A DNA stretch of 64,000 nt from assembly GCF_022539665.2 (NCBI RefSeq), contig NC_081333.1:9486001-9550000 (forward strand), read 5' to 3'. The notes below the pieces were generated by a model that was given only the letters and a program-made list of their open reading frames with translations, had not been told where the DNA came from and ran no database searches. A program made the translations under genes and the position numbers. Origin of the DNA: Daphnia carinata. Taxonomy: Eukaryota. Below are positions 3,888 through 9,154 of the stretch, one piece after another; the stretch's first letter is position 1; each line of letters begins with the position of its first letter.

Positions 3888-6800
3888 ATGAACCGACATC
3901 ACCATCCGTTGGTTGCATCATTCCAAACAGCCGGATCGTTGACGTGTTTCTTCTTCTTCCTGTTTATTCTACCGCAGTTTTTCATCACCACAGGTACTGC
4001 TTGTGTGTGTGTGTACGTTATGCTAGTCGACAATGAAATGGATAGATTGTTTTGATTATGGTCTGGCAAGCAGTCAACGCAATCGATTGCTTCAAATGCG
4101 TCTCCGTCAACGGCGAGAATCCCGCCTGCGAGGACCCGTTCCACAATAACTTCACCAGCGATCTACTAGAATCGCCCTGCATGGGCGGACGTAAAAACCG
4201 CAATGGTCTCTTCCCAGCCACAGCATGTCTCAAGCTCGCCGGTCGTTACGGTATTATTATCATAATAAATTACACGCATCATCAGATAACTGGACTTTTG
4301 CTTCCGCGTCCGCGCCCTTTTTTTTTATCGACGGCAGTTGCATATTCTACTGTGTAGCCTAAGGCATGATGGATATATTTTTTTTCAAATCTTATCTTTT
4401 TTTTTTGAAAGGAAAGTTTTCTGTTGAATAGTTGTATTGGGAAAATTGTTAGCGATTCAATTTTTATGGATCAAGGGGAAAGAAAAGAAGAGTTCATGTG
4501 CATGTATACCGTACCTGCTGACTGAATATCGATTAACGTTTAGTCCTTGTGGTCCTCCGGAAATGGGTATCATTATATCCTTCTGGGAAAAAAAAAATAA
4601 AGAATCGGTAGAAAACGGCGCTCGTGATAGATGTGGATGCGGTACATAGCTCAGAATAGTAATGTTCTATTTTTCCGTTTCATATTTTGGGGTTTTTTCC
4701 TTATTGGTAGGAGGGCGTTTTTCTTATTGCGTGCCCCAAAAATATGAAAATTATCTTTTCCTGTAGGACATACTGCACAGAGCTAATACCTATATAGTCG
4801 CCGTTCTATGTCCATAGAAAGAAAAGTGTCTTTTTTTTATCGAATCATTATTTTTGATAAAAAATGACATATCTTACACACAGCGATTGATTTATGTGCG
4901 TGCAGCAAGTATCCCAGTTAGAAATGTCAGAAATAATCAAGACGAAAGGGAGGAAAAACATCCTGTACGAAATAAAAGTGCTCCAAGAAGATGAAGAAAA
5001 ATAAAAGACTAGCAAAAAATATATATGTTTGGGTCTCGTGAGCATTAACTTATAAAATGAGGCTTTTACAATATTTAGCAAGACGAACTTGAAATGGGCC
5101 TAGAACTCGTTAACTGGGTAATAAATGCTGGGCTGTGTGTGTCATAATAGACTATAGCAGGATCTCCCTCCCCACATTTTCTTGTAGGATGATTTTGTTT
5201 TTTTTATCAAGTTGGATATATTAGGCTTTCGTTTACTATGCATAATATTGTGTCTTTGAGAGAAAGGGGAAAATTAGGAACAAAAGAACAGCTGCGTTCG
5301 ACTGTGTGGTGGCACATCGATCCGTCGTTTTAAAATAAAATCCTAGGACCCAAGATATAGATAAAAGAAAGAGAAAAGATTGGTTTAACTATGCAAACGC
5401 TACTGCGATGAAATAGCCACCGTTGGCCAAATCTTGACGGCGCAATGATATTGAAACAAAGGCTATTAAATTCGCTTTATTCATTTCAGTTTCAATTGCT
5501 GACTGTTTTAGCATTAGGCCTATTCATGTCATTTTGAATCTTTTAATCAGCGACGGTTACTTCCGAAGGGGTCATGGAACCGTCAACACATGTTTACTAA
5601 TTACGAGCGGTATAATTGGGACGAAAGCGAAGGCCTAGTTGGCTAATATGATTCTTATTAAAACGCGCTTCACTATGAGGAATGCCTGTAAGGCAAATGT
5701 TAGACTATTCCTTATAGGCTACACTATAATTCGACTAACAGAGTGTTTAAATGTAACATGTTGATAGAACTCAACTTGGATAACTAAACAAGTGACCAAC
5801 AGTTTCAATGTTTATTAAATATTTAATGAAACATAAACACTGCTTAAAGAAAAAACACAAAGAAAGGATGCTTGGTTGAAGAGCTAAAAATTAGGATGTG
5901 CAAACGGAACACTTCGTTAAGTTCTTTCGTTCATGCTGGGCGAAAAAACGGCGGAATTGCCGGAAACTCATAGGGGTGGAACTCTTTGCCATTGGGGTCA
6001 ACATCCTAATCCGGAATAGACTAACAAACACATAAGGAAAAAAAGTAAAAAAAAAAATAATAATAATAGAAAAATTAGGAGGTTAGTAACGCAGTCAACA
6101 GATTGGCAACAGCTCGGTGGATACCACAAATCAAAAAACTTATTCGATATTATTTTTGAAAAAGAGGAGACATTAAACATAGGAATACTAATCAGCGGGC
6201 TTGACTATTCTTGTAAAAAATTAAAGCCTTGCAAGTTTTTAATTATAGAAACTTTTTGGGGAATTGTTAAAGGTTAGGAGCTATAGCAACAATAATTTAG
6301 GCTGGCTTTTCGTTCAGAAGCATCTCCCTTTCACCTTAAAAAACTGGATCAAAGAAAAGAACGATTTCTTTTGCCTTGTTTCACCCGCACAGTAGACGAC
6401 GTCAGCTGCAAAGTTCTTGTAGAAGAAAAGAAAAAGTTCAGGTAGTTAAAAAATGTTAGTTGTAAACTGTTAGAAATTTGTCCTTTTGATCTACGCTTTA
6501 CTTTAAATCTTTCAAAAATGTAATCTTAAATCGTAGTATTGCAACATTTAGGAGACACAACAATGTAATATGGTGCATATTCGACGAGCCTTTTGTTTTG
6601 TTTTAGCGTCTTATTTATTGCTTGTGCATTAAGTATTGTATTTGATGGATCTTGTGCAACTGTTGCCATGACAAGGAGGGGCAATACCGAAATGTCTAAC
6701 TAATTGAACGTGCTTTTTTTTGTGCTGCCATCGATTTCACGACAACGTCCACGAGTTTCAGCTGATGGTAATTACGAAAAAATGGTGATTCGTACCTGCG

Positions 6801-9154
6801 CCCTGGATTCCGGTTCATTGACACTTGACACGGAACTCGTCCGAATGTCCCATTGTGGCAGTTTCGTTCTGGACGGAAGGTCAGCCACTGATATATCCAT
6901 CAAGTCAACTCCTCTTTTCTCTTTCTGTCCCTAATCCCAGACTCCGATCAATATTAATGCGATATAGTAAAACTGTCGAGAAGAGAGAGGGTCTCAAACC
7001 AGGTGCGTTTCCCCAACAACGATCGTTCGCGTTCGATCGCGATAAATCCGACGTGTGCGTTCTTTATACTTTAAGCCATCCATCTTTCAGCGAAGATCTT
7101 GCGTGAGCACGGTGCACCCTCCTCTACCATCCGATCGAGAACTGAAAGAATAGTAATTGCGTAACCGGAAAAACGAATAGCAGCTGTTATCCATTAGTTT
7201 TTTTTTAACAGGCAGAAGGGGATTCTAGAATCGGTATATGGAACAACATGTTCCGTTGAGCATGCACTCAATCGATTTAAAACATATAGGTTTGATTAGT
7301 CATTGATGTTTTCATCTCTTTTTTTTTTGTGTGTGTGTGTTTCCCTTGTTTTTCTTTTTTTGGTTCACATTGGTCAACGCTTCACGAACGACGTCCGATC
7401 ACGTAATAGACGATACGGGCGAAACGATAGTAGTTAGAGGTTGTGCTCTGGACAGTGGCACGTTGACGACCGATACAGAAATCATACGCATGTCTCACTG
7501 CGGCGGATTGTACTTTGACGACAGGTAATTAAAAGAAAAATCAACTATCCCGGTTTCATCCGATTGCTATTCCGAGATATCCTTAGATCCATCGCATGCA
7601 CCATCATCAATCTAACACAGTTCAGATTGCCTTCCATCCCTTGACGCTCTATCGAATTTCTTATTTTGCATTTCGTGCACACGTTTTCGATTATGTTCGC
7701 AAGCATGTGATATGGAATTCCCTGTAAACCACGTACCTCTTCTTGGATGTAAGTTTGAACGCAATGTATTGATGCCTCAGGAAAACAACTGTGTTCTATT
7801 CTGCCTGCGTCGTTCACTCTTCTTTCTGTTTACCCAAAGCTATAAACAAGTGTTTGAGACTGTTGTCGTGCATCCAATACAAACTCATAGACTATATGTG
7901 TACAGTTACATGGCCCATCAATTTGTTTATGTGACAAAGAACAAAGACGGTACTGCCTAGTACGAAATAGAAACCAACTTTTTACTACATCTCCTTATAT
8001 ATATACGGCGTCTGTTTGTTGTTCAACTCAAAACAATCAACTGCGTATTTTTCGGCAGATGAAAACACTAAAGGTCGTGCCAATGGTGCTCGCACTCAGG
8101 CTTTACCCGGCTATAAACATTGGGGTTCCCAAAAAAAAAAAGAAAAAAAAGAAAAAACGGTGTCAGCAGTGAGATATCCAAACGGTTTAGCTATTGAAAT
8201 TCAAACGCGCAGTGCAAATGCTCGCTGAAGCGATTGATTGAGCCTGCCTTCACTCTGTCCGACAAAAGAGATTGCCAGCATGAGGCAATGCATGGCTTGA
8301 TGGATTACGGCGGCATCATCACTCTCACTCACGCCCCCTCTATAAATATATGTACCGCTCACGCACAGCACTCTTCCCACTGAAGTCGTTCTATACACAC
8401 GGCAAGCTTTTTTTTTTGTTATGTATTCAATATAGCTCTCGCTCTTCATTTTCAACACTTTTTTTTTTTCACGAGTCTTTCACAATGTTATTATTATTTT
8501 TTTTCTGTCTACGTGCCTTTTGTGTTACGAAAAAAAAAAAATCGTTCACAGACGGCGAAGGATGGAGGGCTCTCAAAGCGAGTGAACCGGGAGAGCTCGC
8601 TTCGTGTCTGCGTCTATTTTTCACGTTTGCACAATGACGATACCATAAAGCATACATCACTAATATACAGGGCTAACTGTGTATCAAAATTCATATATCG
8701 CTACTGAGTTCACGAAACTACATTCCAACCCTGTTTTATTTTATTTGGCTTGGTTCAATTCAATTTGAAAGTTTTACCATTTAACGTAAATTCTCGGTAC
8801 TGGCTGGCTAACATTGTACTTTCTTTGACCATTCTAAAAAAAAAAGAAATTAATAGAACTCTCTCTTTTGATTTGGTGACACTTATTCCAATCCTTTATA
8901 AAGCTTTCGCCTTGTTGTGTATTGTAACAATTTGGAGGGGGGGGGGCGATTGATGTCTTGGCCTTTTTTTGCTGGTAGCTTCAATTATCTTATTTGCGGT
9001 CTATAGGTACGTCAACGGTTGCCTTCAGAGCTGCGATGACGGCGACGGGTGCAACAGGGCGCCAGATCGTTCCAGCTGGTTGCGGATGGCCGCTGCCTCG
9101 GCCACATTCTCTCTCATCTTTGGCTGCAGAATACCCTTTCATGTTTTACGATAA
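3888..9154 (+). CDS. Ly6/uPAR three-finger, probably GPI-anchored protein (quiver/sleepless-like). Exons 3888-3993, 4074-4250, either 6762-6879 or 7410-7524, then 9007-9154
   Basis: Hydrophobic N-terminal signal (CFFFFLFILPQFF), then IDCFKCVS..CEDPF, further Cys, a C-terminal GCLQSCDDGDGCN (the CN motif of LU domains) and a hydrophobic GPI-signal-like tail. GT-AG junctions and phases are consistent. Confidence 0.9.
6762..6879 (+). CDS. Ly6 gene alternative exon 3A (ADGNYEKMVIRTCALDSGSLTLDTELVRMSHCGSFVLDGR)
   Basis: tttcag acceptor, AG|gtcagc donor, 118 nt, phase 1 to phase 2; paralogous to exon 3B. Confidence 0.85.
7410..7524 (+). CDS. Ly6 gene alternative exon 3B (DDTGETIVVRGCALDSGTLTTDTEIIRMSHCGGLYFDDR)
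   Basis: aatag acceptor, AG|gtaatt donor, 115 nt, phase 1 to phase 2; paralogous to exon 3A. Confidence 0.88.

What the first reader, a model, noticed from the sequence alone, without database searches (positions are those of the whole stretch)
6762..7524. Tandem-duplicated mutually exclusive exons diversify the Ly6 three-finger domain
Seen: exons 3A (118 nt) and 3B (115 nt) encode paralogous peptides sharing R.CALDSG.LT.DTE..RMSHCG, and both run phase 1 to phase 2. Including both (233 nt) or neither shifts the frame, so exactly one must be used. Both are intact despite heavy silent-site divergence, which suggests old, maintained duplicates. Established: quiver/sleepless-type Ly6 proteins modulate ion channels and nicotinic receptors through their loops. 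Inference: two isoforms with different finger loops and possibly different partners.
Basis: partly seen in the sequence, partly recalled or inferred. Interest (0 to 1): 0.75.

Follow-up and report, generated by a model that had tools for sequence, protein, structure and literature searches.

The report
Ancient alternative exon pair, Ly6 gene
A water-flea gene for a small three-finger (Ly6/quiver-type) surface protein carries two tandem copies of one exon, and public annotation of this and nine other crustaceans gives protein versions with one copy or the other, so this is a real and probably very old, but fairly ordinary, way of making two versions that likely differ in what they bind.

Summary
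The window is Daphnia carinata. The gene is LOC130685280, a QVR (quiver-family Ly6/uPAR) three-finger protein.

Exons 3A (6762-6879, 118 nt) and 3B (7410-7524, 115 nt) are GT-AG bounded paralogues, 59% identical in protein. Both run from phase 1 to phase 2. Using both or neither shifts the frame.

RefSeq already lists isoform X1 (with 3A) and X2 (with 3B). The same A/B swap separates isoforms of one gene in three other Daphnia species, Artemia, Homarus, two Penaeus species and Portunus. The stomatopod's two listed isoforms both carry A. Tandem copies, A before B, also occur in an amphipod, a crab and an ostracod-like contig.

3A is under strong purifying selection (dN/dS about 0.03). A-type exons from branchiopods, malacostracans and an ostracod form one clade, but lineage-specific duplication is not rejected (AU p 0.10). 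Insects, mites and horseshoe crabs show only a B-like exon.

AlphaFold models place the exon on the second strand of finger 2, a conserved linker, and the first strand and tip of finger 3.

Not shown: RNA junction reads (no run listed), tissue bias, binding partners. One prawn RefSeq model includes both exons, frame-shifted.

Unexplained: 3B is 114/115 nt identical to a distant Daphnia-like contig, while 3A has dS 0.88.

The parts
3888..3993 (+). Exon 1 coding part (ATG at 3888; hydrophobic N-terminus, predicted signal peptide)
   Evidence: It matches the N-terminus of RefSeq isoforms P0138 and P0003. The AF2 helix at residues 9-32 fits a signal or anchor segment; that reading is inference.
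4068..4073 (+). Tandem AAG|CAG (NAGNAG) acceptor in front of exon 2
   Evidence: Sequence. D. pulex and D. pulicaria isoforms differ by one Ala exactly here (TAVSA vs TVSA). Use in D. carinata is not shown.
4074..4250 (+). Exon 2 (177 nt): cysteines 1-5, finger 1 and the first strand of finger 2
   Evidence: 100% identical to P0003 and 68-95% to arthropod orthologues.
6689..6761 (+). Intron block upstream of 3A, conserved in a distant Daphnia-like contig (L001)
   Evidence: The blastn block 6689-6893 is 81% identical, while the rest of the introns does not align. Function unknown. The duplex test against exon 3B was negative.
6762..6879 (+). Exon 3A (118 nt, phase 1 to 2), the 'A-type' alternative exon
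   Evidence: Present in RefSeq isoform X1 (P0138). dN/dS 0.026 against L001.
6880..7409 (+). 530-nt intron between the two alternative exons
   Evidence: Not alignable to L001 except for short patches.
7410..7524 (+). Exon 3B (115 nt, phase 1 to 2), the 'B-type' exon; this is the form found throughout arthropods
   Evidence: Present in RefSeq isoform X2 (P0003). 114/115 nt identical to L001.
9007..9154 (+). Exon 4 coding part: cysteines 8-10 with the C-terminal CN motif, a hydrophobic tail (predicted GPI signal) and stop TAA at 9152-9154
   Evidence: AF2 helix at residues 155-173. GPI anchoring is inference from family knowledge.

Best explanation
Exons 3A and 3B of Daphnia carinata LOC130685280 are tandem duplicates of one exon of a QVR/Ly6 three-finger gene. 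Annotated mRNAs carry one or the other, giving two isoforms that are predicted to differ on the facing strands and tips of fingers 2 and 3, and that would therefore likely recognise different partners.

Shown by the sequence and calls:
- The exons are homologous, have the same phases, and are frame-incompatible when both or neither is used.
- Both belong to one gene.
- Both are conserved as protein.
- The A/B isoform pairs recur across crustaceans.

Predicted: the exon encodes the tip and second strand of finger 2, an invariant linker (CALDSG.LT.DTE..RMSHCG, holding cysteines 6 and 7), and the first strand and tip of finger 3. The A/B differences cluster at its two ends.

Inferred:
- The duplication arose once, before branchiopods, malacostracans and probably ostracods split, and the A copy was later lost, or never fixed, in hexapods and copepods.
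- Transcripts with both exons are unproductive because of the frameshift, and in Daphnia would be removed because of an early stop.
- The choice between exons is regulated in some tissue- or stage-specific way.
- The protein is secreted and GPI-anchored.
For: Anatomy.

One gene, two isoforms: XP_057364546.1 (X1, 182 aa, 3A) and XP_057364547.1 (X2, 181 aa, 3B) carry the same LOC id.

The same swap separates isoforms of one LOC in D. pulex (X1 and X3 have A; X2 and X4 have B), D. pulicaria, D. magna, Artemia franciscana, Homarus americanus, Penaeus japonicus, P. vannamei and Portunus trituberculatus. Oratosquilla X2 and X3 carry A. All 34 proteins printed carry exactly one copy.

Intron-free contigs (cDNA-like; the library type was not checked) from related cladocerans:
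- A form: P0005, from a 991-nt contig.
- B form: L021, with ex2-3B-ex4 contiguous.

Genomic tandem copies, A before B: the window, L001, the ostracod-like ORF P0121, Hyalella P0166 and Chionoecetes P0167.

Selection: 3A against L001 has dS 0.88 and dN 0.023. The A peptide differs by 0-2 residues among six Daphnia-like sources.

Single origin: all 9 A rows plus Cyprideis form a clade at 92/87, which joins the ostracod-like copy 1 and Darwinula at 95/73.

Family and fold:
- Pfam QVR: 28.9 bits for the B isoform against a cut-off of 27.3.
- 9 cysteines invariant and the tenth (C149) present in at least 90% of 50 orthologues.
- AF2 pLDDT 74 and 70.
- All 50 rows of the VIA list are three-finger, LU or TGF-beta-receptor ectodomains, with top Z 5.8.
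Against: No RNA reads could be laid on the window, so D. carinata usage rests on RefSeq models whose RNA support I could not inspect.

Exclusivity is partly true by construction, because frame-shifted models are rarely annotated. One RefSeq model, Macrobrachium rosenbergii X1 (P0170), reads as A followed by a B-type exon in the +1 frame for at least 35 codons. So double inclusion may occur.

The AU test does not reject a branchiopod-specific duplication (delta lnL 15.5, p 0.10). The tree rests on 40 columns.

A isoforms score 26.8-26.9 bits, just under the Pfam cut-off.

Structural matches are middling: Foldseek gave none at E <= 0.001 and VIA Z is below 6.

No regulatory RNA structure was found.

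The function and partners of this protein are unknown in any species I could find.
Confidence: 0.85

Rival explanations
1. The pairs in branchiopods, malacostracans and ostracods arose by independent, lineage-specific exon duplications, or were homogenised and re-diverged. On this view their likeness is convergent, and the Daphnia pair is much younger than Pancrustacea.
For: The AU test does not reject a tree with all branchiopod A and B exons together (p 0.10). Only 40 columns were used and the bootstrap had not settled. Amphipod copies are mosaic: Hyalella copy 2 has a B-like centre and an A-like end. Copepod- and insect-like loci lack the pair, which under a single origin needs several losses.
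Against: The free tree puts all 9 A rows from Daphnia, Artemia, decapods and the stomatopod in one clade (92/87), 15.5 lnL units better than the constrained tree. These A rows share LT-L-DTEL, and 8 of the 9 share FV-L-x-G-R (Portunus has FVFAER); no outgroup shows this pattern. Their B partners share TEII with many insects. The order A then B is the same in all 5 places where it can be read.
Confidence: 0.15
2. One of the two exons, most plausibly the derived 3A, is a rarely used or unproductive copy. Only one isoform would then matter biologically.
For: No read-level evidence was available for this genome. A isoforms fall just under the Pfam cut-off. B is the form kept everywhere else in arthropods.
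Against: 3A has dN/dS 0.026, with 14 synonymous and 2 non-synonymous changes against L001. Splice sites and frame are intact. The A peptide is nearly invariant across Daphnia and recognisable in Artemia and decapods. An intron-free A-form contig (cDNA-like) exists (P0005). A 73-nt intron block in front of 3A is conserved.
Confidence: 0.04
3. The two exons are not strictly exclusive. The splicing machinery includes both fairly often, and only the frameshift, by decay or useless product, makes the protein output look exclusive. No dedicated selector mechanism would exist.
For: The 530-nt intron rules out simple steric hindrance, and all sites are GT-AG. No significant docking/selector-like pairing was found (z 0.15 and 0.30). 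The M. rosenbergii X1 model contains both exons.
Against: Only one pairing hypothesis was tested, with two genomes. The conserved intron block before 3A and the frozen nucleotide sequence of 3B hint at RNA-level regulation. Annotated both-exon models are 1 among the roughly 40 crustacean RefSeq models seen.
Confidence: 0.3

Closest known systems
Crustacean RefSeq orthologues with A/B isoforms (e.g. D. pulex LOC124192179, D. magna LOC116935961, Artemia LOC136027474, Homarus LOC121858642, Penaeus japonicus LOC122260922)
   Same: Same gene, same position of the swapped segment, same A-type and B-type signatures, same length relation.
   Different: None in kind. D. carinata differs by 0-2 residues per exon from other Daphnia. 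As far as my searches show, these records are database annotation only and have not been described in a paper.
Classical mutually exclusive exon clusters made by tandem exon duplication (Drosophila Dscam, Mhc, 14-3-3zeta, MRP; listed in PMC6071210, passage read)
   Same: Adjacent homologous exons of near-equal length and equal phase, one per mRNA; they diversify a defined structural element of the protein.
   Different: Only two variants. No competing RNA structure was detected. Exclusivity at the protein level is guaranteed by frame (lengths are 1 mod 3), which is not the case for Dscam-type clusters.
Quiver/Sleepless and other Drosophila QVR/Ly6 proteins (qvr, bou, crok, cold, crim, rtv, twit, bero)
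   Same: Same Pfam family (PF17064). Ten-cysteine LU domain with N-terminal CxxC and C-terminal CN. Hydrophobic N- and C-termini typical of GPI-anchored members.
   Different: Orthology to any named fly gene was not established here. It is probably not rtv: PMC3561106 (passage) reports no C. elegans homologue of Rtv, whereas this gene has clear nematode relatives. Functions of the named genes (channel and nAChR modulation, septate junctions, cuticle) are recalled knowledge and not transferable without a test.
Vertebrate LU-domain proteins (Lypd6/6b, Lynx1/2, SLURP-2, uPAR, C4.4A, GPIHBP1) and three-finger toxins
   Same: Best structural matches of the AF2 model over residues 37-150 (Z 4.4-5.8).
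   Different: No detectable sequence relation to any PDB chain. There is a long conserved insert between cysteines 6 and 7 that these proteins lack. The SLURP-2/Lynx1 relation is alternative splicing of another kind (a secreted vs anchored form), not an exchange of finger-encoding exons.

Membership tests
Mutually exclusive exon pair (tandem exon duplication type) | Adjacent exons in one gene, with no other exon between them | tested here: met
   3A (6762-6879) and 3B (7410-7524) are separated by one 530-nt intron, between exon 2 and exon 4 of LOC130685280.
Mutually exclusive exon pair (tandem exon duplication type) | Sequence homology, similar length, identical splice phase | tested here: met
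   59% aa identity, E 2.7e-11 in the window. 118 vs 115 nt, both phase 1 to 2, both GT-AG.
Mutually exclusive exon pair (tandem exon duplication type) | Exactly one of the exons in each mature productive mRNA | tested here: inconclusive
   All 34 isoforms printed carry exactly one. Intron-free A-only (P0005) and B-only (L021) contigs, cDNA-like, exist. No junction reads are available for this genome, and one prawn model carries both.
Mutually exclusive exon pair (tandem exon duplication type) | Both or neither is incompatible with the reading frame | tested here: met
   Both exons: stop after 10 codons of 3B. Neither: frame-shifted exon 4.
Mutually exclusive splicing by competing RNA structures (docking/selector) | Conserved intronic selector sequences complementary to one docking site | tested here: inconclusive
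   Only the conserved block 6689-6761 was tested, against exon 3B, in two genomes: z 0.15 and 0.30 against shuffles. Exon-internal folds are not stable. Other pairings were not searched exhaustively.
QVR / Ly6-uPAR (LU) three-finger domain, Pfam PF17064 | Match to the family profile at the curated threshold | tested here: met
   P0003 (B isoform) scores 28.9 bits against a cut-off of 27.3, over profile positions 1-86 of 86. A isoforms of D. pulex and D. galeata score 26.8-26.9, just below. Single exons alone do not reach the threshold.
QVR / Ly6-uPAR (LU) three-finger domain, Pfam PF17064 | Ten conserved cysteines with N-terminal CxxC and C-terminal C-N | tested here: met
   C41, C44, C54, C71, C87, C107, C126, C139 and C143 are invariant; C149 and N150 are present in at least 90% of 50 orthologues.
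QVR / Ly6-uPAR (LU) three-finger domain, Pfam PF17064 | Three-finger beta fold | tested here: met
   The AF2 models show beta hairpins at 86-94/101-108 and 125-131/134-144. All 50 listed VIA rows are three-finger-type domains, but Z is only 4.4-5.8, and Foldseek found none at E <= 0.001.
QVR / Ly6-uPAR (LU) three-finger domain, Pfam PF17064 | Signal peptide and GPI anchoring | not testable with these tools
   Hydrophobic N- and C-terminal segments are predicted as helices 9-32 and 155-173. No signal-peptide or GPI predictor was available.
Orthologue of Drosophila quiver/sleepless (qvr) | Reciprocal best match or tree placement with D. melanogaster qvr | not tested
   No D. melanogaster protein appeared among the listed hits. 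The 'Protein quiver/sleepless' labels on hits are automatic UniRef names.

The most novel reading that the evidence does not exclude
A single exon duplication at the base of Pancrustacea, more than 500 million years ago by recalled dating, created a two-state switch in an ecdysozoan-wide Ly6 gene. The switch has been kept in ostracods, branchiopods and malacostracans and lost in hexapods and copepods. Exon choice is governed by an RNA-level code: exon 3B is frozen at every synonymous site between distant Daphnia lineages, and a conserved intron block lies before 3A.
Probability: 0.2. Interest if true: 0.6.

Novelty: new member of a known kind. Interest (0 to 1): 0.38.

Why it matters
Ly6/three-finger proteins bind their targets through the finger loops. 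Families of them usually diversify by gene duplication.

Here one highly conserved gene instead diversifies two fingers by exon choice. The arrangement looks as old as the crustaceans, yet it is missing from the insects examined.

That gives a compact natural experiment: the same scaffold with two alternative faces. It could be used to find the unknown partner(s) of this ecdysozoan-wide protein. It is also a clean case for studying gain and loss of mutually exclusive exons.

It does not change any principle. Both isoforms are already in RefSeq, so the value is descriptive and comparative.

Tried and rejected
**RNA evidence.** No junction test was therefore possible.

**Whole genome.** None is held for this window.

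**Single-exon Pfam scans.** Only exon 2 gave a weak QVR hit (E 0.047). 3A, 3B and exon 4 gave none.

**Third exon copy or a neighbouring paralogue in the 64 kb.** None at E up to 10.

**Competing-structure idea.**
- Exon-internal folds of 3A and 3B are no more stable than shuffles (z +0.72 and +1.84).
- The duplex of the conserved intron block with exon 3B gave z 0.15 (window) and 0.30 (L001).
- The region upstream of 3B against exon 3A gave z +1.6.
- A loose sliding duplex scan put exon 3B first among downstream windows in both genomes, but at background energies. I rejected it as evidence.

**Structure and sequence relatives.** PDB sequence relatives: none at E up to 1. Foldseek against PDB: none at E <= 0.001.

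**Drosophila orthologue.** Not found among the listed hits. The ESM Atlas gave only 'QVR / Protein quiver' clusters.

**Literature.** Five searches found no paper on this exon pair. The one hit with both 'mutually exclusive exons' and 'Ly6' concerned human LY6G5C.

**Retroactive (rtv).** Considered as the identity and set aside, because of the nematode relatives.

**Earlier notes of this scan.** Nothing for this genome or sequence. One concordant note came from another genome.
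Full report
**What is in the window**

The region is eukaryotic DNA at about 40% G+C.

Exon 2 of the gene (4074-4250) is 100% identical to [quoted passage not shown] (P0003). The window is therefore D. carinata.

The gene model read from the sequence and checked in scripts is:

| Exon | Coordinates | Length |
|---|---|---|
| 1 | 3888-3993 | 106 nt |
| 2 | 4074-4250 | 177 nt |
| 3A | 6762-6879 | 118 nt |
| 3B | 7410-7524 | 115 nt |
| 4 | 9007-9154 | stop TAA |

All introns are GT-AG.

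With 3A the product is 182 aa and with 3B it is 181 aa. With both exons a stop appears 10 codons into 3B. With neither, exon 4 is read out of frame.

The likeness of the two exons is far beyond chance: 59% protein identity, tblastn E 2.7e-11 within the window. There is no third copy and no other Ly6 gene in the 64 kb. No competing long ORF lies on the opposite strand.

**One gene, two annotated isoforms**

The 90%-identity cluster of P0003 has two members: XP_057364547.1 (isoform X2, 181 aa) and XP_057364546.1 (isoform X1, 182 aa, P0138). Both belong to LOC130685280.

Their sequences equal my B and A products letter for letter. So both forms are already in RefSeq. I could not inspect the RNA support behind those models, and no RNA run could be listed for the locus.

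**The pair in other species**

Of the 120 best relatives of exon 2:
- 74 carry a B-like exon 3
- 10 carry an A-like exon 3
- 2 are ambiguous
- 34 are ORFs that stop in the intron and carry none

B-like is the form of ticks, horseshoe crabs, spiders, insects and copepods.

Cluster look-ups show isoforms of a single LOC that differ only by A versus B in:
- D. pulex, D. pulicaria and D. magna
- Artemia franciscana
- Homarus americanus
- Penaeus japonicus and P. vannamei
- Portunus trituberculatus

Oratosquilla X2 and X3 carry A. All 34 proteins printed carry exactly one copy.

A search with a profile of A-type exons (140 hits among 7990 scored candidates, 120 listed) added:
- A-type forms in Palaemon and Macrobrachium
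- the ostracods Cyprideis and Darwinula
- mis-fused models that hold both copies, A before B: Hyalella P0166, Chionoecetes P0167 and the unnamed ORF P0121, which resembles Darwinula

Macrobrachium rosenbergii isoform X1 (P0170) is an exception worth noting. After its A exon, the tail is compatible with a B-type exon read in the +1 frame for at least 35 codons. It is a both-exon, frame-shifted model.

**Where the pair is not seen**

A scan of metagenome contigs gave 33 loci.

Only L001, a Daphnia-like contig, has the tandem pair, in the same order and with a similar intron.

Twelve genomic loci hold exon 2, a single B-like exon 3 and exon 4 on one contig: L007-L012, L022 and L028-L032. By resemblance these are insect-, copepod- or mite-like.

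Eight non-crustacean species have several annotated isoforms in one cluster: five insects, a spider mite and two horseshoe crabs. In 0 of these 8 do the isoforms differ in exon 3. An isoform more than about 10% different would fall in another cluster, so this is not proof of absence.

**Age**

I built a maximum-likelihood tree of 44 exon-3 peptides, chosen by me from about 270 fetched proteins (40 columns).

All 9 A rows plus Cyprideis fall in one clade (92/87). That clade joins P0121 copy 1 and Darwinula (95/73). B rows sit with the insect single exons.

Forcing all branchiopod A and B rows together costs 15.5 lnL units, but the AU p is 0.10, so this alternative is not rejected.

A single old duplication is therefore favoured, not proven. 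The statement that this predates the branchiopod-malacostracan split by some 500 million years uses recalled phylogeny and dating.

**Selection**

| Comparison | Synonymous changes | Non-synonymous | dS | dN |
|---|---|---|---|---|
| 3A vs L001 | 14 of 27 sites | 2 | 0.88 | 0.023 |
| 3B vs L021 | 16 | 1 | 1.36 | 0.012 |

For 3A this gives dN/dS of about 0.03. L021 is a more distant, intron-free (cDNA-like) B-form contig.

Neither exon behaves as a pseudo-exon.

**Protein**

The B isoform passes the Pfam QVR threshold (28.9 vs 27.3 bits). A isoforms of D. pulex and D. galeata fall just short at 26.8-26.9 bits.

Nine cysteines are invariant and the tenth (C149) is present in at least 90% of 50 orthologues, with the N-terminal CxxC and C-terminal CN motifs.

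The AlphaFold models have pLDDT 74 for A and 70 for B. They show a hairpin at 86-94/101-108 (finger 2), a low-confidence linker with a short helix (109-124), and a hairpin at 125-131/134-144 (finger 3).

The exon 2/3 junction (residue 94/95) falls at the tip of finger 2. The exon 3/4 junction (residue 134) falls just past the tip of finger 3.

The alternative exon thus supplies the inner strands and tips of fingers 2 and 3. The A/B differences sit at those ends:

| Position | A | B |
|---|---|---|
| Finger 2 end | ADGNYEKMVIRT | DDTGETIVVRG |
| Finger 3 end | SFVLDG | GLYFDD |

The centre of the exon is invariant.

Structural neighbours are all LU or three-finger domains, at modest scores: VIA Z 4.4-5.8, and no Foldseek match at E <= 0.001. 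There is no PDB sequence relative.

Secretion and GPI anchoring are inferred from the hydrophobic ends.

**Mechanism of exclusivity**

The 530-nt intron excludes simple steric hindrance, and all sites are of the major type. The frame rule (both lengths are 1 mod 3) guarantees that only single-exon mRNAs encode the domain.

Decay of the both-exon form is inference.

I found no support for competing RNA structures, but I tested little.

**An unexplained observation**

Between the window and L001, exon 3B is 114/115 nt identical, with 0 of 26 synonymous sites changed and one non-synonymous change. The identity runs 121/122 from 3 nt before to 4 nt after the exon.

Exon 3A, only 530 nt away, has 16/118 differences, and the introns do not align.

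Post-hoc Fisher tests give p = 1.2e-5 for synonymous sites and 1.7e-4 for all sites.

Against the more distant L021, 3B is not conserved at silent sites.

Either 3B carries an RNA-level constraint within part of Daphnia, or the metagenome contig is a mosaic produced by the assembler. With two sequences I cannot tell which.

**Literature**

Five full-text searches found no description of this exon pair.

I read only passages of three papers:
- PMC6071210, on lists of exon clusters and the competing-structure hypothesis
- PMC3561106, on Rtv conservation and the lack of a C. elegans homologue
- PMC4476152

All other papers were seen as listings only.

Statements on Sleepless acting on Shaker channels and nicotinic receptors, and on septate-junction Ly6 proteins, are recalled.

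It is not independent evidence.

**Verdict**

This is a real, conserved, probably ancient mutually exclusive exon pair in a QVR/Ly6 gene. It is already present in RefSeq annotation and, as far as searched, undescribed in papers. It is a new example of a well-known mechanism.

Noticed in passing
window 7407-7528 vs L001:2395-2516: Exon 3B is 121/122 nt identical to a Daphnia-like metagenome contig, with no synonymous change. Neighbouring exon 3A has dS 0.88, and the introns do not align. A more distant relative (L021) does show silent changes in 3B (dS 1.36). The cause is either an RNA-level constraint or an assembly mosaic.
   Followed up: partly
window 6689-6761: A 73-nt intron block just upstream of exon 3A (including TGCCATCGATTTCA-CGACAAC) is conserved in L001, as are 14 nt after the 3A donor. 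A similar motif (TTCACGAACGACGTCC) lies before 3B. Pairing of the block with exon 3B is no better than shuffles.
   Followed up: partly
window 4068-4073: The exon 2 acceptor is a tandem AAG|CAG. D. pulex and D. pulicaria isoforms differ by one alanine at exactly this junction (TAVSA vs TVSA). Horseshoe crabs and a spider mite show a one-residue difference at the exon 2/3 junction instead.
   Followed up: partly
window 7585-7644: Read from the AG at 7585-7586, this stretch encodes RSIACTIINLTQFRLPSIP*. It resembles the odd C-terminal tail of D. magna isoform X4 (…DDRKRSIACITINQTQQFRLPSIA). This may be a conserved alternative terminal exon after 3B, giving a truncated protein without cysteines 8-10 and without the anchor signal.
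   Followed up: partly
P0170 (Macrobrachium rosenbergii isoform X1), P0172 (M. nipponense): These RefSeq models contain both the A and B exons. In P0170 the B exon and exon 4 are read in the +1 frame. P0172 has a frame slip inside A and then B in frame.
   Followed up: partly
P0053 / P0252 (Homalodisca vitripennis isoforms X1/X2): The two isoforms differ by alternative, clearly homologous last exons (cysteines 8-10 plus the anchor signal). A different exon of the same gene appears to have been duplicated in a leafhopper.
   Followed up: no
L004, L012-L016, L026, L028: In these termite-like metagenome loci, exon 2 runs straight into exon 3 with no intron. The intron that holds 3A in Daphnia has been lost there.
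   Followed up: no
P0001 (Ixodes scapularis), P0002 (Mythimna loreyi): These gene models have internally repeated segments of exon 2, and of exons 3-4 in Ixodes. They look like annotation or assembly duplications rather than biology.
   Followed up: no
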